Positions 223 to 31,710 of a DNA stretch of 64,000 nt are shown here, in pieces. Under the pieces are notes generated by a model, which saw only the letters and a list, made by a program, of their open reading frames with translations, had not been told where the DNA came from and made no database searches. The stretch's first letter is position 1; each line of letters opens with the position of its first letter. The position numbers and the translations under genes were made by a program. The stretch spans positions 185,766-249,765 of the forward strand of contig JAHFLF010000001.1 of NCBI GenBank assembly GCA_023255625.1, read 5' to 3'. This DNA is from Candidatus Harrisonbacteria bacterium. Its GTDB lineage: Bacteria > Patescibacteriota > Minisyncoccia > UBA6257 > 1-14-0-10-44-23.

Positions 223-485
223 ATGGCTGTATTCTAGGCCTCCAGGTGAAGACGCGCAAGTTGTAGGTAATCTTTTTTGAAGGTATCATATACGCAACAA
301 CTTAATAGCAGTGTGACCTAACCTCTCCGAGCAATCGGGCAGCATGGTCTTAAGCCCTCAACAGTAAAAAGCTCCTAGTCAGAGCGCTGTTGAGGCCATA
401 TCGGGAAACTGGTATGGGTGCCGCAAGGCATCGCTGGCTGGGGGCTTTTTGTTCGTCAGCCAGCATAACGATTAAAAATATCATT

Positions 486-15078: not shown

Positions 15079-15146
15079 AAAAAGGTGGCTGTGTAATTTT
15101 TCGGCAAACGGGGTTCTATTGCCGAAAAATTACACAGCCACCTTTT
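15079..15146 (-). terminator. Intrinsic terminator (27-bp perfect stem hairpin with flanking T/A runs) downstream of clpB; potentially bidirectional
   Basis: aaaaggtggctgtgtaatttttcggcaa-acggggttctat-tgccgaaaaattacacagccacctttt. U-run follows on the minus strand (ttttctcgtttcg). Confidence 0.75.
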
Positions 15147-19246: not shown

Positions 19247-19318
19247 GCGGCGGGCATTTTGGTTTTTGCAGCCATCCCGTAGGGTGGGCCCGGCTGCAAA
19301 AACCAAAATGCCCGCCGC
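19247..19318. repeat. Long perfect hairpin, family R4 copy A (27-bp stem, conserved 18-nt loop)
   Basis: gcggcgggcattttggtttttgcagcc-atcccgtagggtgggccc-ggctgcaaaaaccaaaatgcccgccgc. Directly 3' of the cysteine desulfurase gene. Confidence 0.8.
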
Positions 19319-23197: not shown

Positions 23198-23255
23198 GCA
23201 GGTATTGTACCGCGAGCCAGTTAATCTGCAAACTCTTGTTTGCATGATCTTTTAC

Positions 23256-23330
23256 GCCGCGCCTGAAATTGCATTTTACAGCCATTCGCTTGCGATGAGC
23301 CCGGCTGTAAAATGCAATTTCGGGCGCGGC
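23256..23330. repeat. Long hairpin, family R4 copy B (28-bp stem, conserved 19-nt loop)
   Basis: cgccgcgcctgaaattgcattttacagcc-attcgcttgcgatgagccc-ggctgtaaaatgcaatttcgggcgcggc. Confidence 0.8.
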
Positions 23331-23372
23331 CTCCCTCTTGCCTCTTGCGAACGAGGCGAGTAATCTTGGGGC

Positions 23373-23903
23373 ATGGCACCGAAAAAAATCACACAATCTA
23401 CTCTTCCCCAACCATTTCTCTTTAAAAACGGCCGCGGCGAACAACTGCACACCGATCAGGTAGTCCGCGAAATTGCCCGCTTTATGCTCCTACAACCACA
23501 GCGAGCATATAAGATCACTATTGGTTCAGACTCTGAACAGCTCGCCGACAAGCGTGCGGACTTTGTGACGGCCATCGTCGTGCACCGCGTTGGTAACGGC
23601 GGTATGTATTTTTGGCGACGTATTGTAGACAGCACAAAATTCCATACGCTGCGCGACAGAATTCTCCAAGAGGTGTTGCTTTCGCTGGAAATTTCGCAAC
23701 TCTTCATTGAAGAGGCAAAAATTGGCGGGCTTCCCCACTTTGATTTTGAAATCCACATTGATATTGGCGAACATGGCGCCACAAAAGTGATGATTCAGGA
23801 GCTCGTCGGCATGATCCGTGCAAATAATTTCACCGCAAAAACCAAACCCGACAGCTACGCCGCCAGTAAGGTGGCGGATAGGCATGGACTGAAGAATGAT
23901 TGA
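23373..23903 (+). CDS. YkuK/DUF458-family RNase H-like fold protein
   Basis: KITIGSDSEQ, ADFVTAIVVHRVGNGGMYFW, and C-terminal KPDSYAASKVADRHG match the YkuK-family pattern as recalled. No database check possible. Confidence 0.5.
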   Translation: MAPKKITQSTLPQPFLFKNGRGEQLHTDQVVREIARFMLLQPQRAYKITIGSDSEQLADKRADFVTAIVVHRVGNGGMYFWRRIVDSTKFHTLRDRILQEVLLSLEISQLFIEEAKIGGLPHFDFEIHIDIGEHGATKVMIQELVGMIRANNFTAKTKPDSYAASKVADRHGLKND

Positions 23904-23911
23904 GTACAGTC

Positions 23912-23998
23912 AAATTTTCAATTTCTAATTTTCAAACAATGATTTAATTTCAGAATTTCTAAATTGGAAATTGTTTAGAAATTGAAAATTGAAAATTA
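23912..23998. repeat. AT-rich palindromic element family R2, copy 2
   Basis: aattttcaatttctaattttcaaacaatgatttaatttcagaatttctaaattggaaattgtttagaaattgaaaattgaaaatt. Over 85 percent identical to copy 1. Confidence 0.7.
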
Positions 23999-24591
23999 AT
24001 GAACCAATGGACACTATTGTCCTCGACATCGAAACCAAAGACATGTACGGTGGGGCATCGGGAAAAATAATTTCCGACCTCTCGCCGTCTTTTGTTGGAA
24101 TTTATTCATATTCTGGAAATAAATATTCTGGCTATTTTGAAAGTGATTTCCCTGACCTAAAAAAACTGTTGAGCGAACCGGCACTCTTAGTCGGCTTTTC
24201 TTCAAATCGGTTTGACCTGCCGATTTTAAGCCGCGTACTGAATCTTGTTTTTGATAAGCATCCGAAAGTAGACCTTTGCGAAGAACTGGAAATACGCACC
24301 GGCCGGCGGGTTGGTCTGAATACGCTCGCCCTCATCAATCTGGGCAAAGGCAAAACCGGCGCCGGGCTGGATGCTCCACAACTTTTCGCCGAAGGAAAAC
24401 TTGAAGAGCTCAAAAGCTACTGTCTGAATGATGTGCAACTCACAAAAGAACTATATGACTTAATTCGTACAAAAAAAGAATTAAAAATCCCAAAGCAAGA
24501 AAGTGTCTTTTCAAATCAGCTCGGACTTTTTGAAAAAGATAAGCTAGAAAAAGTAAAAATAGATTTGGGGCCATTACTAACTTTCATATAA
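23989..24591 (+). CDS. DEDD-family 3'-5' exonuclease (DnaQ/RNase T/RNase D-like)
   Basis: TIVLDIETKD (Exo I DxE), FSSNRFDLPIL (Exo II), YCLNDVQLTKELY (Exo III Y-x3-D). Confidence 0.6.
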   Translation: MKINEPMDTIVLDIETKDMYGGASGKIISDLSPSFVGIYSYSGNKYSGYFESDFPDLKKLLSEPALLVGFSSNRFDLPILSRVLNLVFDKHPKVDLCEELEIRTGRRVGLNTLALINLGKGKTGAGLDAPQLFAEGKLEELKSYCLNDVQLTKELYDLIRTKKELKIPKQESVFSNQLGLFEKDKLEKVKIDLGPLLTFI

Positions 24592-24600
24592 TGAACCCTG

Positions 24601-24674
24601 CGCGGTGGCAATATGTTTTTGCCAGCCATTCGCTTGCGATGGGCCCGGCTGGAAAAAACATATTGCCACCGCGC
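24601..24674. repeat. Long hairpin, family R4 copy C
   Basis: cgcggtggcaatatgtttttgccagcc-attcgcttgcgatgggccc-ggctggaaaaaacatattgccaccgcg. Confidence 0.8.
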
Positions 24675-24726
24675 CCCCATTCGTACTCCTGCCTACCGGC
24701 AGGCAGGTTCGTAAAAAATTCGTAAT

Positions 24727-24804
24727 TCACGAGCCATCAGTTTGCATTTTGAAGCCATCCCGAAGGGTGAGCCCGGCTTCAAAATGCAAACTGATGGCTC
24801 GTGA
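24727..24804. repeat. Long hairpin, family R4 copy D (30-bp perfect stem)
   Basis: tcacgagccatcagtttgcattttgaagcc-atcccgaagggtgagccc-ggcttcaaaatgcaaactgatggctcgtga. Confidence 0.8.
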
Positions 24805-24884
24805 TTAAATCCGGGTATAAAAAAGCGGGGCCTCGACATGCGTCTTGGCCCCCATTCCCGGATTGTGCGCCGGGGCGCTGCGAG

Positions 24885-25058
24885 GAGCTAGTCCTCGCTC
24901 TCCCACCGCAGATGCGCGATTGCACTGCGCGGAGACCAGACGAGCAGGACCAGCCAGCCAAGGAACCCCATGAGCCAGTTATCGCCAGGCGTCATGTTGT
25001 ATCCGCCCGCTTGCTTCGCCGATCCCTCTGTCTCCACTCTCTTCTTGAACCACAACAT
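24885..25058 (-). CDS. Small hydrophobic protein (57 aa, one TM helix) in GC-rich island
   Basis: MLWFKKRVETEGSAKQAGGYNMTPGDNWLMGFLGWLVLLVWSPRSAIAHLRWESED. SD GGAGGAG 5 nt upstream, -35 TTGACA / -10 TACTAT promoter at 25136-25165. Intrinsic terminator at 24815-24850 (ggggcc...ggcccc + T-run). Confidence 0.35.
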
Positions 25059-25270
25059 GGTCTCCTCCACCCACCGCCACAAAACGGGCGGCAGAATTGA
25101 CCGTTCCCTCCCAGCGCACGCCGGGAAGACCAAAAATAGTATGTTCCTTTTTATTCGCTTGTCAAGCATCTAAAAAAATGGTCTTGGCTCTTTACTGCAC
25201 AATCCAAAAAAGTAGTATACTGATTTTGTCATGGGCTTAGACCTTTGTCCGAAGAACGGGAGGTGCGGGA

Positions 25271-25471
25271 ATGTTGAGGATGCAGAATGAATACTGCAGG
25301 AATTGTCTTTCAACCCAGCGGTTCCTGGACCTCGGCGCGAGTCTCGTGTGCGAGCGCTGCACGGCGCGCCTGTACAGAGTCGCGGATCGCCCAGCGCCGC
25401 ATCCAGAAGGCCAGATCGCCGCCGTGAGGGCGGTGCCGGAGAGCTTGCTTCGCGAACGCGAAGCTGGCTGA
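25271..25471 (+). CDS. Small Zn-ribbon-like protein (66 aa, CxxC-x17-CxxC) in GC-rich island
   Basis: MLRMQNEYCRNCLSTQRFLDLGASLVCERCTARLY... SD GGGAGGTG upstream. Terminator gcgagtccggc...gccggactcgc + T-run at 25470-25515. Divergent from the small TM gene. Confidence 0.4.
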   Translation: MLRMQNEYCRNCLSTQRFLDLGASLVCERCTARLYRVADRPAPHPEGQIAAVRAVPESLLREREAG

Positions 25472-25526
25472 CGAGCAGCGAGTCCGGCCTCCCGTGGGAA
25501 GCCGGACTCGCACTATTTTTATCTTT

Positions 25527-26342
25527 TTATACTTTTGCTAAAAGTTTTTTTATAACTTGTTTCGCCTCTTTCGGCCCGGGGACTTGAATGTAATCCACGC
25601 CGGTTTTGACAACGGCGTAATCATTACCGCCCGGCACAATCTGATCACCAATAAAAATCATATCTTTGATTGGGATATGTAAATGTTTTTGAATCTGTAA
25701 AATTCCGTACCCTTTATCAATCCCCTTCCGGACAACATCCACCGTACTGTACCCGCCGGCTTTTGCCTCAAGCTCCGGCAATTTCTTTTGCATCGCCGCG
25801 GCAATTTTTTCCCGCCAACCGGTTTTGCGAAATGCGAGCTTGATAGCGACTCCCCTCTTCGCGCCAAGTTGCTCCACGATATCCTGACCGACCGCCGTAA
25901 AAGCTATCTGCGTGCCGCGATCCTGGATCAATTCGCCATACACTTTTTTCGGATGCTGGTACCCTAACTCCTTAAAAACATCGTTAAATGTTTTAATAAT
26001 TTTCCGGCGAGTTTTAAGCGGCAACATATGCGCATATACACGCCGCCAGCCGCCCTGGCTGGCCGAGCCGGGCCCCTTACGATACTCATACATGCTGGTC
26101 GCGGTTGTTGGGAACAGCCATAGATTACGCATCAATGCAGGCGATAGATGTAAATGTTCTAAAAACTGATCCTGAAACTGCTCGTACCGGCCGCCGCTGA
26201 TCACAGCGATTTTTTTCTGGCCGAGGAGTTGCGTAAAAAGCCGCGCCATCTCTTTATCCGGCGATGCCTTGCTTTCCGTGAGCGTCCCGTCTAAATCAAA
26301 CACAATCAGTTTTTTGTTAAAAGTCAGTTTGTTCTCTGCCAT
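25527..26342 (-). CDS. HAD-superfamily hydrolase (Cof/IIB-like sugar phosphatase)
   Basis: LIVFDLDGTL (motif I DxD), VISGGR, FIGDQIVPGGNDYA (motif IV). Confidence 0.75.
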   Translation of the reverse strand: MAENKLTFNKKLIVFDLDGTLTESKASPDKEMARLFTQLLGQKKIAVISGGRYEQFQDQFLEHLHLSPALMRNLWLFPTTATSMYEYRKGPGSASQGGWRRVYAHMLPLKTRRKIIKTFNDVFKELGYQHPKKVYGELIQDRGTQIAFTAVGQDIVEQLGAKRGVAIKLAFRKTGWREKIAAAMQKKLPELEAKAGGYSTVDVVRKGIDKGYGILQIQKHLHIPIKDMIFIGDQIVPGGNDYAVVKTGVDYIQVPGPKEAKQVIKKLLAKV

Positions 26343-29718: not shown

Positions 29719-30426
29719 ATGACTAAGGAACTTGTCCGAGTGAAGCTGCTCATCTTCGCCATCGCACCGAACGAAAAGGAGCGACGGACCGCTGCCGCAA
29801 GTCACACGGCCGAAGGGTATATGCGTGATGGCCCACAGATGCTCGGGATCTGTCTGGCAACCTTCGACCAACTGCCTCAGCTGCTCGCGGCCGTCCGGAA
29901 GACTGAAGAGTTCAGGCGCGATGCCGCGGGTCGGGCGGAAAGCGAGGCTGGCAGGATGTTCGCTGCTGCACTGCGCAACGAATCGGATCGGGAAGAGTTC
30001 TATGCTCACACCGTCGCCATCGGCATCATGATGAGTATCGCCGCAGCTTGTCAGGATGCGGGCATGCTCTTCACGCCGGAATTCCCGCGCTACAACCTCC
30101 GCGCTGCCTCAGATACCTACATTAAGACATCCATGAAGGTGGTCCCAGGGATCACGATCTGCATCGGCCCGCATTTCCAGAAGGAGCATCCCTACCTGGT
30201 CATGATCTACGACAAGCCGGGGCTGCTCTGGTGCGGCGAGGCGGCCAAGCTCCCGGAGATCAACTTCGAGACCAGCGCGTGCACACCCGACCCAACGGAT
30301 GTCGCGTGGACGGAGTCCTACTACACCATGTTCTGCTACCACACCGGCATGAAGACCAAATGGCGTAAGAAGGACTCGCCATTCACCAGTGTCGGTGGTC
30401 ACGGCGGATCCTACGGCGGGCACTAG
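29719..30426 (+). CDS. Hypothetical protein (235 aa), GC-rich island gene 1
   Basis: High-GC codon usage. Gly/His-rich C-terminus SVGGHGGSYGGH. No family recognised. Confidence 0.45.
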   Translation: MTKELVRVKLLIFAIAPNEKERRTAAASHTAEGYMRDGPQMLGICLATFDQLPQLLAAVRKTEEFRRDAAGRAESEAGRMFAAALRNESDREEFYAHTVAIGIMMSIAAACQDAGMLFTPEFPRYNLRAASDTYIKTSMKVVPGITICIGPHFQKEHPYLVMIYDKPGLLWCGEAAKLPEINFETSACTPDPTDVAWTESYYTMFCYHTGMKTKWRKKDSPFTSVGGHGGSYGGH

Positions 30427-30462
30427 GCAACATCAACCCATAACTGAACGAAGGAGAATCAG

Positions 30463-31710
30463 ATGAACAAGGCGCTTCTCGTCGTCTACCCGGGCGGGCT
30501 CGCTGGCGGCGGTACGCTCCAGCAGATCCGCGCCAGCTACACCGACCTCGCCGCTCTGGCGGCGAGTCTCGGCATGAGGTTCGAGACGGCCTGGGATCCG
30601 CGCTCGAATCTGCCTGCGCCTACATTTCCGCTGGTCCTGGGCAGTGCCGGCTACTACGCCCGGCATCAGGAGCTCAAGCAGTGGGCAGGCGAGGTGCGCA
30701 CACGGCTGCACGAACAAGGCGTGAGCGAGCTGACGGTGTATGGCTTCGGGTACACCAGCTTCATCCCCTACGCCTTCGAAGGATACGACGATGTTCGGGT
30801 GATCTGGGGAGACTGCTCCCCGCCTGACACCGATGTTCTCGGCGGCGATCTCTCGTCGCGCTTCTACGGCAAGGCCTACGAACGGACGCGCGGCCTCTGC
30901 TACGGCTGGCATGAGGGAGGGCCACTCACGCGCCGGCCACTGATGTATTCGTACTCCATGACCGCGCAACCGTTTGGCAAGGAGTATGTCGGGTCTCTGC
31001 TGGCGCAGCGTCTCACAACTCCCGAACCGCTCGGTGGCGAGGGGGCGATCAGGATTGTGCTCTCGGCTTCAGACATCTGGTCGCCGAATGCAATCGGTGT
31101 CTGGATGACCGAGCAGCAGCACCGTGACACCGTTCTCCGGACGGCGCTTCTCATGGACGCCATTCGAACCTGCGCGCAGCAACTCGGGCGCAAGGTTGTC
31201 CTCTACGCGCACCCGACTCTTCGCAAGGTCAATGTTCCGACGCGCAGCTTCTATCCCAACCAGAGCGGACTGGAGGGATTTGCGGAGGCCGGAGGCATCA
31301 CCCTGGTGGACACGCACACGAGCGCGTGGACACCGGAGCAGTATCGGGCGCTCTTGCGAAGCGCCAACCTGGTCGTAACTCGCGCGTCGCATTCGGTAAC
31401 CTCTGCCGAATGTGCAGCGATGGGAATCCCCCAGGCACTCTGCCCCATGCCGTCAATGGGGTACATGAACGAAGGAGAGTTCACCTCTGACATTCGGGAC
31501 CGCGGGCTGGCCATGGTCCTCGATCCTCTGTCGCGGGGGCTGTGGCGACAGATCGCCACGGCGCTGACCGACGACAATCTGCGGCGCGACACCACCCGCC
31601 GCGCCTGCGAAGAGTTCGACAGGATCAATGACCGCCAGAACTTCTTCAAGAATCTAGCAACCCTCATCGAAGTTTCCTGGAGAAATTCAGATGACTACGA
31701 AGTAGCATAG
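30463..31710 (+). CDS. GT-B fold glycosyltransferase-like protein (GT1/GT28-like), GC-rich island gene 2
   Basis: N-terminal ALLVVYPGGLAGGGTLQQI (Gly-rich loop after beta1). C-terminal SANLVVTRASHSVTSAECAAMGIPQALCPMP resembles the GT1/MurG donor-binding motif. SD gaaggag upstream. Confidence 0.5.
   Translation: MNKALLVVYPGGLAGGGTLQQIRASYTDLAALAASLGMRFETAWDPRSNLPAPTFPLVLGSAGYYARHQELKQWAGEVRTRLHEQGVSELTVYGFGYTSFIPYAFEGYDDVRVIWGDCSPPDTDVLGGDLSSRFYGKAYERTRGLCYGWHEGGPLTRRPLMYSYSMTAQPFGKEYVGSLLAQRLTTPEPLGGEGAIRIVLSASDIWSPNAIGVWMTEQQHRDTVLRTALLMDAIRTCAQQLGRKVVLYAHPTLRKVNVPTRSFYPNQSGLEGFAEAGGITLVDTHTSAWTPEQYRALLRSANLVVTRASHSVTSAECAAMGIPQALCPMPSMGYMNEGEFTSDIRDRGLAMVLDPLSRGLWRQIATALTDDNLRRDTTRRACEEFDRINDRQNFFKNLATLIEVSWRNSDDYEVA

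What the first reader, a model, noticed from the sequence alone, without database searches (positions are those of the whole stretch)
24805..25515. 710-bp GC-rich islet carrying a divergent pair of tiny genes (57-aa TM peptide and 66-aa Zn-ribbon protein), each with its own promoter, SD and terminator
Seen in sequence:
- GC content jumps well above the flanks exactly between hairpin R4 copy D and the HAD gene.
- Minus strand: TTGACA-18-TACTAT promoter, GGAGGAG SD, ORF MLWFKKRVETEGSAKQAGGYNMTPGDNWLMGFLGWLVLLVWSPRSAIAHLRWESED, and a ggggcc...ggcccc-T6 terminator.
- Plus strand: SD GGGAGGTG, ORF with CxxC-x17-CxxC, and a gcgagtccggc/gccggactcgc-T terminator.

Inference: a self-contained divergent small-gene cassette of foreign composition resembles a toxin/antitoxin-like or small membrane toxin plus regulator module acquired horizontally. 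Two of the R4 hairpins abut its left edge.
Basis: partly seen in the sequence, partly recalled or inferred. Interest (0 to 1): 0.55.

Follow-up and report, generated by a model that had tools for sequence, protein, structure and literature searches.

The report
Conserved zinc-ribbon and membrane microprotein pair
A GC-rich 0.7-kb stretch of a Saccharibacteria-type genome carries two tiny back-to-back genes, a rare unannotated zinc-ribbon protein shared with Planctomycetes and a fast-evolving small hydrophobic protein; related genomes keep both at the same spot, so this is an old small-gene locus of unknown function and not a freshly acquired toxin-antitoxin cassette.

Summary
Corrections: the minus-strand ORF is 56 aa, not 57. 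The zinc motif is CxxC-x14-CxxC, not x17. The hydrophobic segment is only borderline for a membrane helix.

The 66-aa ORF is a real gene. It belongs to a rare family (99 cluster representatives among 1.84 billion proteins) with a nearly invariant 35-residue zinc ribbon and synonymous variation. It matches no curated Pfam, NCBIfam, PADLOC, PHROG or PDB family.

In Planctomycetota the gene stands alone beside fmt-scpA, behind a sigma-54-type promoter. In eight related Saccharibacteria loci it occupies the same slot as here (exonuclease – small ORFs – ZnR – HAD/PGM – FtsK), and a ninth relative has lost it. Small hydrophobic ORFs sit opposite it. They share the promoter but not recognisable sequence.

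All these small genes keep high GC3 (0.60-0.92, against a background near 0.5). That persistence is unexplained.

The two genes occur without each other, are not co-transcribed and show no antisense complementarity. They match no toxin or antitoxin family, and nothing suggests mobility. The toxin-antitoxin and recent-transfer readings are therefore not supported. Function remains unknown; interest is moderate.

The parts
24819..24852 (-). Intrinsic terminator of the minus-strand small gene: GGGGCC, 14-nt loop with an inner 3-bp stem, GGCCCC, GC, then U6
   Evidence: Read from the sequence. Present in the MFE fold of the transcript. The scan tool missed it because the loop exceeds 8 nt.
24888..25058 (-). 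56-aa ORF (MLWFKKRVETEGSAKQAGGYNMTPGDNWLMGFLGWLVLLVWSPRSAIAHLRWESED). It is an orphan small protein with a Trp-rich, borderline hydrophobic segment at residues ~28-42.
   Evidence: ORF list. Gene callers called it in three assemblies. GC by codon position is 0.54/0.46/0.79, permutation p = 0.0002. No homologue was found. Positional analogues with the same promoter and SD occur in 8 related loci.
25059..25102 (-). Leader hairpin directly before the AUG. UUCUGCC pairs with GGUGGAG of the SD region (SD GGAGGAG at 25068-25062), and GGUC pairs with GACC.
   Evidence: dG -22.5 kcal/mol, z -2.95. The same architecture appears in L008 and L019, with 2 compensatory pairs. This is a prediction only.
25136..25165 (-). 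Sigma-70-type promoter of the small-ORF gene: TTGACA, 18 nt, TACTAT (or 16 nt, CATACT)
   Evidence: Scan, 10 of 12 matches. TTGAC and TATACT boxes are conserved at the same spacing in related loci.
25191..25221 (+). Inferred promoter of the zinc-ribbon gene: TTTACT / TTACTG as -35, TATACT as -10 at 25216-25221
   Evidence: Read from the sequence. A TATACT-like box occurs at the equivalent place in L017, L009 and L007. The consensus scan did not call it, so this part is inferred.
25258..25265 (+). Shine-Dalgarno GGGAGGTG, 5 nt before the ATG
   Evidence: Sequence.
25271..25471 (+). 66-aa zinc-ribbon protein (ZnR): C9xxC12-x14-C27xxC30, a disordered Pro/Ala/Arg/Glu tail, and a C-terminal REREAG that corresponds to the family's RREA[VM] end
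   Evidence: 27 homologues at 50-82% identity, with 18 invariant columns. 99 representatives at E <= 1e-3. Synonymous third-position changes relative to the Planctomycete genes. In the AF2 model the ribbon at residues 8-35 has pLDDT 70-81 and the rest is disordered.
25478..25525 (+). Intrinsic terminator of the zinc-ribbon gene: 16-bp stem GCGAGTCCGGCCTCCC/GGGAAGCCGGACTCGC followed by a T-rich tail
   Evidence: Inverted repeat I15, scan, MFE fold.

Best explanation
The window comes from a Saccharibacteria-type (CPR) genome. The islet is a lineage-conserved small-gene locus made of two independent transcription units that fire outward from a ~100-bp AT-rich back-to-back promoter region.

Unit 1, plus strand. 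It encodes a member of a rare, unannotated zinc-ribbon microprotein family (ZnR). The family has a basic, almost invariant 35-residue ribbon and a disordered tail ending in a short conserved motif. Planctomycetota carry it as a stand-alone gene beside fmt-scpA, behind a sigma-54-type promoter. From the composition and the family distribution I infer that an ancestor of this Saccharibacteria clade acquired the gene from a high-GC donor of that kind, and that it has been inherited in place since. From the invariant basic ribbon, the disordered tail and the terminal motif I infer that the protein is a cytoplasmic adaptor or regulator that docks onto a conserved nucleic-acid or protein partner.

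Unit 2, minus strand. It encodes a very fast-evolving small hydrophobic protein. Translation is probably throttled by a leader hairpin that pairs with the Shine-Dalgarno sequence.

The two genes are neighbours that share a control region. They are not an obligate pair and not a toxin-antitoxin system.

Shown: gene reality for ZnR, synteny, promoter conservation, the composition anomaly, and separability of the two genes. Inferred: direction and age of the transfer, translation of the 56-aa ORF, the role of the leader, and the biochemical role of ZnR.
For: ZnR is a real, constrained gene:
- 27 homologues with invariant Y8, C9, N11, C12, L13, T15-F18, D20, L25-C30, R33 and L34.
- Third-position variation in the alignment with L003 and L004.
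- 99 representatives in 1.84e9 proteins.

Family distribution: Planctomycetota and Saccharibacteria MAGs, plus one short contig titled Nanoarchaeia.

Planctomycete context is constant: ZnR sits next to fmt and scpA. TGGCAC-N5-(G)TGC lies ~100 nt upstream in L003, L004, L005, L006, L011-L013 and L016; L014 has TGGCAT.

Saccharibacteria context is constant: DsbB, RNaseH-like, exonuclease(+), 1-2 hydrophobic small ORFs(-), ZnR(+), HAD or PGM/PMM(-), FtsK(+). This holds in the window, L007, L008, L017, L019, L021 and L022. L009 shows the right-hand part of the slot.

The minus-strand promoter boxes TTGAC and TATACT align across loci.

All small ORFs have strong SDs and GC3 of 0.75-0.92. ZnR has GC3 of 0.60-0.75. 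The local background is 0.47-0.60.

Separability: no hydrophobic ORF lies upstream of ZnR in 6 Planctomycete loci. L020 keeps a 53-aa hydrophobic ORF but has neither ZnR nor HAD.

Leader hairpin.

No mobility signs: no tRNA, and no plasmid, phage or IMG/VR relatives.
Against: - No expression or proteomic data exist for either gene.
- The 56-aa protein has no detectable homologue at all, not even among its positional analogues, and its hydrophobic segment is borderline.
- GC3 periodicity cannot by itself exclude the plus-strand frame whose third positions coincide with it.
- A composition anomaly that persists in an old syntenic locus is not what simple ancient transfer followed by amelioration predicts.
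- Each Saccharibacteria ZnR core is closer to the Planctomycete sequences than to other Saccharibacteria copies. That could also mean repeated replacement.
- The functional assignment of ZnR rests only on generic features. All fold and profile matches are sub-threshold.
- The sigma-54 reading is a motif match only.
Confidence: 0.55

Rival explanations
1. Toxin-antitoxin-like module. The small hydrophobic peptide is a membrane toxin. The zinc-ribbon protein, or its mRNA, is the antitoxin or regulator.
For: The peptide is small and hydrophobic. The arrangement is divergent, as in tisB/istR-1 or zorO/orzO (my knowledge of those systems). A stable leader hairpin is predicted to occlude the SD. Small hydrophobic ORFs turn over rapidly at this site.
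Against: ZnR occurs without any hydrophobic partner in 6 Planctomycete loci. A hydrophobic ORF occurs without ZnR in L020. Each gene has its own promoter and terminator, so they do not form an operon. Duplex energy between the two transcripts is no better than shuffles. The longest complementary word is 11 nt in the window and in L008, at different places, and 7-9 nt in the other six loci. Neither protein hits PADLOC, Pfam or PHROG. The locus is single-copy and syntenic.
Confidence: 0.1
2. Only the zinc-ribbon gene is real. The minus-strand unit yields a non-coding or leader-type RNA, and the 56-aa ORF is a by-product of GC-rich sequence.
For: The ORF has no homologue and no similarity to its positional analogues. 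Its hydropathy is borderline. The transcript folds better than shuffles, z = -2.5. GC-rich DNA throws up ORFs on several frames; a 99-aa and a 67-aa ORF lie on the opposite strand.
Against: The 3-base periodicity has the typical GC1 > GC2 << GC3 order in exactly the frame that carries the SD and ATG (p = 0.0002). The same signature holds in all eight analogues (GC3 0.75-0.92). Every analogue has a GGAGG-type SD 4-8 nt before an ATG. The L009 and L022 peptides are 91% identical with no indels. No Rfam match was found even at E <= 10.
Confidence: 0.2
3. A recently acquired mobile cassette or genomic islet specific to this genome, possibly delivered with the flanking R4 hairpins.
For: The composition is foreign. 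Hairpins sit at the left edge. Other GC-rich inserts exist in this genome and in its relatives.
Against: The same two-gene arrangement occupies the same slot in 8 relatives. Those relatives lack the hairpins entirely. There are no mobility genes, no tRNA and no target duplication. No relatives were found on plasmids, phages or viral contigs.
Confidence: 0.05
4. ZnR is a DNA-binding transcription factor. It acts on the shared intergenic region to control the divergent hydrophobic-protein gene, itself, or both.
For: The promoters are back-to-back with -35 boxes about 30 bp apart. The ribbon is basic: 6 K/R against 3 D/E in residues 1-37. There are weak sub-threshold resemblances to TFIIB/RpoP-type ribbons. 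The intergenic region between L009 and L022 is almost invariant, more conserved than the coding sequence.
Against: Across the loci no conserved operator-like repeat appears beyond the promoter boxes. In Planctomycetes ZnR has no divergent partner and a different promoter type. A single zinc ribbon without a further DNA-binding domain is an unusual bacterial repressor (my knowledge).
Confidence: 0.1

Closest known systems
Type I toxin-antitoxin loci with divergently encoded partners (tisB/istR-1, zorO/orzO, shoB/ohsC)
   Same: A small hydrophobic peptide gene with its own strong promoter. A structured 5' leader is predicted to hide the ribosome-binding site. A divergent neighbour is transcribed from the same intergenic region.
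   Different: The neighbour is a conserved protein-coding gene, not an sRNA. The transcripts share no conserved complementarity. The locus is single-copy and syntenic. The hydrophobic segment is only borderline. Toxicity is untested.
MqsR/MqsA-type type II TA, in which the antitoxin carries a CxxC...CxxC zinc-binding domain
   Same: A small protein with a four-cysteine zinc-binding module encoded next to a small partner gene.
   Different: There is no HTH domain. The genes are not in an operon. Neither protein matches a toxin or antitoxin family. The partners occur separately.
Classic zinc ribbons of the transcription and translation machinery (RpoP/Rpb12, TFIIB/TFS N-terminal ribbons, ribosomal S27ae/L37ae-type ribbons)
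   Same: Two CxxC knuckles 14 residues apart, and a predicted three-stranded sheet. The best sub-threshold profile and fold matches are to these proteins.
   Different: All matches are below significance: Pfam 15 bits against a cut-off of 29, NCBIfam E >= 0.01, Foldseek E >= 0.35. Those proteins are archaeal or eukaryotic subunits. ZnR also has its own invariant motif, NKYCSNCLxTQRFLDL...LVCERCxKRL, and a disordered tail with an RREA[VM] end.
One-domain zinc-finger micro-proteins of Haloferax volcanii (PMC6562870; title and abstract as listed, paper not read)
   Same: Proteins under ~70 aa that consist essentially of one zinc-binding module and have regulatory or stress-related roles.
   Different: No sequence relationship was tested or is claimed. 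The phyla differ. This is cited only as the nearest functional category.

Membership tests
Zinc-ribbon fold | Two CxxC knuckles contributing four zinc ligands | tested here: met
   C9, C12, C27 and C30 are invariant in 27 sequences.
Zinc-ribbon fold | Three-stranded antiparallel sheet between and after the knuckles | tested here: met
   The AF2 model has strands at 18-20, 24-27 and 33-35 with block pLDDT of 69-81. Confidence is moderate only.
Zinc-ribbon fold | Zinc actually bound | not testable with these tools
   Needs metal analysis of purified protein.
Any curated protein family (Pfam, NCBIfam, PADLOC, PHROGs, PDB sequences) | Score above the curated or significance threshold | tested here: not met
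   Best Pfam hit is Zn_Ribbon_TF at 15.1 bits against a cut-off of 29. FtrD-like scores 14.4 against 26.3. NCBIfam best E is 0.005-0.01. PDB profile search E >= 0.29. PADLOC and PHROGs give nothing.
Type I toxin-antitoxin | Toxin of 60 aa or fewer with a transmembrane helix | tested here: inconclusive
   The ORF is 56 aa. Its best 17-residue Kyte-Doolittle mean is 1.45 (Trp/Gly-rich), against 1.9-3.2 for the analogues.
Type I toxin-antitoxin | Antisense RNA complementary to the toxin mRNA | tested here: not met
   No plus-strand promoter was found in or next to the ORF. The duplex with the divergent transcript is not better than shuffles. The longest shared word is 11 nt and is not conserved among loci.
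Type I toxin-antitoxin | Toxicity on overexpression | not testable with these tools
   Needs an experiment.
Type II toxin-antitoxin | Two genes co-transcribed as an operon | tested here: not met
   The genes are on opposite strands, and each has its own promoter, SD and terminator.
Type II toxin-antitoxin | Strict co-occurrence of the two partners | tested here: not met
   ZnR is alone in L003, L004, L006, L011, L014 and L016. The hydrophobic ORF is alone in L020.
Horizontally acquired genomic islet | Composition unlike the host genome | tested here: met
   GC 0.58-0.63 against 0.476. GC3 0.73 and 0.79 against 0.50 +/- 0.07.
Horizontally acquired genomic islet | Absent from related genomes (patchy presence) | tested here: not met
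   ZnR is present in the same slot in 8 of 9 related loci (L007, L008, L009, L017, L019, L021 and L022 with ZnR; L020 has lost it).
Horizontally acquired genomic islet | Mobility hallmarks (integrase, tRNA target, flanking direct repeats) | tested here: not met
   No tRNA in the window. No integrase-like ORF nearby. No flanking direct repeats. The abutting hairpins are genome-specific palindromes.
Horizontally acquired genomic islet | Relatives in a plausible donor lineage | tested here: met
   For ZnR only: Planctomycetota MAGs of 70-72% GC carry it in a conserved core neighbourhood. No donor was found for the 56-aa ORF.

The most novel reading that the evidence does not exclude
The slot between the exonuclease gene and HAD/PGM-FtsK is a microprotein hot spot of an episymbiotic Saccharibacteria clade. 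A zinc-ribbon factor captured from Planctomycetota-like bacteria (possibly hosts or neighbours) is kept there next to hypervariable small membrane proteins. Their persistently high GC3 and tightly gated translation reflect ongoing cassette replacement, or selection tied to host interaction. Under this reading ZnR would be a new conserved regulator that is sigma-54-controlled in free-living Planctomycetes and has been co-opted by ultra-small symbionts.
Probability: 0.12. Interest if true: 0.6.

Novelty: new member of a known kind. Interest (0 to 1): 0.35.

Why it matters
The locus defines an uncharacterised, very small zinc-ribbon family with an unusually invariant core. Its distribution is odd: Planctomycetota, where it sits behind a sigma-54-type promoter, and a clade of genome-reduced Saccharibacteria. 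A reduced genome of ~0.6 Mb that keeps this gene, together with strongly promoted and translationally gated small hydrophobic proteins, suggests these microproteins do something useful for the symbiont. Automated annotation ignores them.

The persistent codon-composition anomaly in an old syntenic locus is a small but concrete puzzle for models of amelioration after gene transfer.

Nothing found here changes a major concept. The value is mainly as a well-delimited candidate for small-protein functional work.

Tried and rejected
- Known RNA families. Rfam at gathering thresholds over the whole window, and at E <= 10 over 23200-25600, found nothing in the islet.
- Known protein families. Pfam, NCBIfam, PADLOC, PHROGs and PDB sequence profiles gave only sub-threshold generic zinc-ribbon hits. 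Foldseek against the PDB gave only generic ribbons at E >= 0.35.
- Homologues of the 56-aa ORF. The search found none. The 432-aa DnaB-like protein that shares its 90% cluster is a clustering artefact. All-against-all BLASTP of the positional analogues links only some of them (L009-L022 strongly; L021_38-L022_109, L009_43-L019_78 and L009_43-L021_152 weakly) and never the window peptide.
- Closer relatives for a dN/dS test. The nearest genome has only 82% exonuclease identity, so no such test was possible for the window ORF. L009 against L022 gave 4 synonymous and 4 non-synonymous changes, too few to decide.
- Metagenome scan with the exonuclease profile. It returned only two loci.
- Mobile-element origin. 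No ZnR was found on plasmids, phages or IMG/VR contigs.
- Antisense interaction between the two transcripts. It is not significant and not conserved.
- The plus-strand 99-aa ORF (24801-25100) and 67-aa ORF (24970-25173). Both rejected. The 99-aa ORF has no SD and starts inside a hairpin. Neither has a promoter. Their codon-position GC order is atypical, and the 99-aa ORF has no Pfam match.
- The archaeal (Nanoarchaeia) member. It rests only on the title of a 3.8-kb contig. Pfam did not confirm an archaeal marker next to it, so I do not rely on it.
Full report
1. What is in the sequence

The stretch 24805-25515 has GC 0.58 in a window of 0.476. It consists of two lobes of GC 0.60-0.63 separated by an AT-rich core of 0.45. 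Windows of 200 bp with GC >= 0.62 make up 2% of the 64 kb, and those >= 0.66 make up 0.3%.

On the minus strand a promoter matches the consensus at 10 of 12 positions: TTGACA at 25165-25160, then 18 nt, then TACTAT. After it come a ~70-nt leader, the SD GGAGGAG (25068-25062), a 56-aa ORF (25058-24888), and a hairpin followed by U6 (24852-24819).

On the plus strand there is a TATACT box (25216-25221), the SD GGGAGGTG (25258-25265), a 66-aa ORF (25271-25471), and a 16-bp hairpin with a T-rich tail (25478-25525).

The minus-strand ORF is 56 aa, not 57. The motif is CxxC-x14-CxxC, not x17. The hydrophobic segment is only borderline, with a Kyte-Doolittle 17-residue maximum of 1.45.

The region is not an assembly artefact. 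An independent Logan assembly contig of 4403 bp is identical across the islet and both flanks, and related genomes have the same arrangement (section 3).

2. The zinc-ribbon gene is real and belongs to a rare, unannotated family

A search of 5.8 billion proteins returned 26 relatives at 50-82% identity. In the alignment Y8, C9, N11, C12, L13, T15-F18, D20, L25-C30, R33 and L34 are invariant. The consensus is MLRMRNKYCSNCLSTQRFLDLGxCLVCERCSKRLERV, followed by a variable Pro/Ala/Arg/Glu-rich linker and, in most members, a C-terminal W...RREA[VM].

A profile search of 1.84 billion cluster representatives found only 99 proteins at E <= 1e-3. Nearly all are 40-180 aa long.

The nucleotide alignment with two Planctomycete genes shows that most differences in the conserved part fall on third codon positions. 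That is selection on the protein, not on an RNA.

No curated library recognises the family. Pfam's best hit is 15 bits against a cut-off of 29, and NCBIfam, PADLOC, PHROGs and PDB profiles give nothing significant. AlphaFold models a three-stranded ribbon for residues 8-35 at moderate confidence and leaves the rest disordered. Foldseek returns only generic ribbons (RNA polymerase subunits, TFIIB, ribosomal proteins) at E >= 0.35.

3. Where the family lives

Named members are Planctomycetota MAGs. In six such loci (GC 70-72%) the gene always lies beside fmt and scpA. It is preceded, about 100 nt upstream, by TGGCAC-N5-(G)TGC, the pattern of sigma-54 promoters, plus two further conserved boxes. 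A sigma-54 activator gene is nearby in two loci. No small hydrophobic ORF lies upstream in any of them.

The genome scan also found the gene on 128-kb and 267-kb contigs of Candidatus Saccharibacteria MAGs. These share the window's gene order: DsbB, RNaseH-like (PF04308), a 194-200-aa exonuclease at 78-82% identity, then the islet, a HAD phosphatase and FtsK. The window is therefore from a Saccharibacteria-type genome; its contig is 601,890 bp.

Using the exonuclease as an anchor I retrieved five more loci. In the window, L007, L008, L017, L019, L021 and L022, and at the right-hand end of L009, the slot contains one or two small hydrophobic ORFs on the minus strand and ZnR on the plus strand. 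L020 has lost ZnR and HAD but keeps a 53-aa hydrophobic ORF.

One further member sits on a 3.8-kb contig titled Nanoarchaeia. I could not confirm that assignment.

4. The minus-strand gene

The 56-aa protein has no homologue. It shows no BLASTP similarity even to the ORFs that occupy the same position in relatives.

Several points still argue that it is translated:
- The TTGAC and TATACT promoter boxes align across the loci.
- Every analogue has a GGAGG-type SD 4-8 nt before an ATG.
- Every analogue has a hydrophobic stretch, with Kyte-Doolittle maxima of 1.9-3.2.
- In every one the codon-position GC has the coding order GC1 > GC2 << GC3, with GC3 of 0.75-0.92. In the window the values are 0.54/0.46/0.79, permutation p = 0.0002.

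One caveat applies. The plus-strand frame whose third positions coincide shows the same GC3. However, that frame lacks a promoter, has a stop inside the region, and has the wrong GC1/GC2 order.

Some analogues are visibly related to each other. L009 and L022 are 91% identical, with 4 synonymous and 4 non-synonymous codon changes and no indels. L021-38 and L022-109 share ...ESL(F/W)AR. L007, L020, L009 and L022 share (G/A)DW(R/D)(R/T). This looks like one or a few very fast-evolving small-protein families.

I put the probability that the window ORF is translated at about 0.75.

5. Regulation

The two -35 boxes are about 30 bp apart and the transcripts do not overlap.

In the window the 44 nt before the AUG fold into a hairpin (dG -22.5 kcal/mol, z -2.95) in which UUCUGCC pairs with GGUGGAG of the SD region. 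L008 and L019 have the same design, with two compensatory pairs.

In L009, L021, L022 and L017 the SD instead sits in a loop closed by a 4-5-bp stem that ends at the AUG. Base changes there keep the stem.

These are predictions. They suggest that translation of the hydrophobic protein is gated.

A toxin-antitoxin pair should co-occur and be coupled. Here each partner occurs without the other. They are separate transcription units. The duplex energy between the two RNAs is no better than shuffles. The longest complementary word is 11 nt in the window and in L008, at unrelated places, and 7-9 nt in six other loci. No TA or defence profile matches.

A recently acquired cassette should be patchy and show mobility marks. 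Here the slot is syntenic across a clade whose exonuclease has diverged to 70-82%. There is no tRNA, integrase or direct repeat. No relative is found on plasmids, phages or viral contigs.

The two long hairpins at the left edge are insertions peculiar to this genome. They are missing from every related locus and belong to a family with copies elsewhere in the window.

7. What remains unexplained

A donor's codon signature should decay in an old locus. Instead all the small genes of this slot keep GC3 far above their hosts. In addition, each Saccharibacteria ZnR core is closer to the Planctomycete near-consensus than to other Saccharibacteria copies.

This could be fast divergence from a consensus-like ancestor. 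It could be repeated replacement from high-GC donors. It could also be selection or biased gene conversion acting on synonymous sites in a recombination-prone slot. Relatives carry extra, unrelated GC-rich ORFs next door, and the window has another GC-rich island at 29.7-31.7 kb. I cannot decide among these options with the data at hand.

8. Most likely mechanism, and verdict

Shown: a conserved locus with two independently transcribed microprotein genes, one of them a member of a rare, strongly constrained zinc-ribbon family.

Inferred:
- ZnR is a cytoplasmic adaptor or regulator that uses its basic, invariant ribbon to dock on a conserved nucleic-acid or protein partner, and its tail motif to recruit or be recruited.
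- In Planctomycetes ZnR is expressed conditionally, through sigma-54.
- In this Saccharibacteria clade ZnR was captured once or repeatedly and is transcribed from a sigma-70-type promoter.
- The neighbouring hydrophobic microprotein is a separate product under translational gating.

The locus is not a member of any described TA family. By fold it is a zinc ribbon, and by family it is new and unannotated. Interest is moderate (0.35). It is a clean candidate for small-protein work and poses a modest evolutionary puzzle, but it is not a new kind of system on present evidence.

Noticed in passing
window 19247-19318, 23256-23330, 24600-24674, 24727-24804 (possibly also 15080-15146): A family of long hairpins with perfect 27-30-bp stems. 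The stem sequences differ between copies, but the apex is conserved: GCC-AT-[3-bp mini-stem that covaries: TCG-CTTG-CGA / CCC-GAA-GGG / CCC-GTA-GGG]-TG(A/G)GCCC-GGC. The hairpins are absent from all related loci. One copy lies between divergent gene starts, so they are not simply terminators.
   Followed up: partly
window 315-432 (+): A LOOT RNA (RF03000) match at 79 bits, above the gathering score of 46.4.
   Followed up: no
window 29719-31710: A second GC-rich island (GC >= 0.62 over ~1.7 kb) with a 235-aa and a 415-aa ORF. Both have GC3 of 0.76 and no Pfam match. These are the only other clearly high-GC3 genes in the 64 kb.
   Followed up: partly
L007 6100-6700 and L008 6100-6700: The relatives carry a further GC-rich insert (GC ~0.66) between HAD and FtsK, with unrelated 160-aa and 150-aa ORFs. 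The window has only 47 bp there. The neighbourhood therefore seems prone to taking up GC-rich genes.
   Followed up: no
L003 5883-5897, L004 5897-5911, L006 4923-4937, L011 3901-3915, L016 3921-3935: In Planctomycete loci the zinc-ribbon gene is preceded by a conserved TGGCAC-N5-(G)TGC (sigma-54 type) and two conserved upstream boxes (TGGAAACGCCCGATCTCAGC and CTGGACACGGACGTCGTCA). A sigma-54 activator gene lies nearby in L004 and L016.
   Followed up: partly
L020 3573-4060: One relative has lost both the zinc-ribbon gene and the HAD gene. It keeps a 53-aa hydrophobic ORF between the exonuclease gene and FtsK.
   Followed up: yes
L009, L019, L021, L022 and P0046, P0054, P0060, P0080: A long-tailed subfamily of the zinc-ribbon protein (124-183 aa). 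Its Pro-rich tail carries conserved motifs (PPxGDLP / PEPWH..NWPAD) and a G(R/G)(I/L)I(I/V/R)P C-terminus. Between L009 and L022 the tail is more conserved than the ribbon core.
   Followed up: no
window 23913-23997: An AT-rich palindrome with 28-nt arms, plus AATTTC-type short repeats, just upstream of the exonuclease gene start (I4, D2).
   Followed up: no
window 25009-25019 and 25443-25453: The 11-nt word GCTTGCTTCGC occurs once in each small gene. About 3% of shuffles do as well, and the word is not conserved in relatives.
   Followed up: yes
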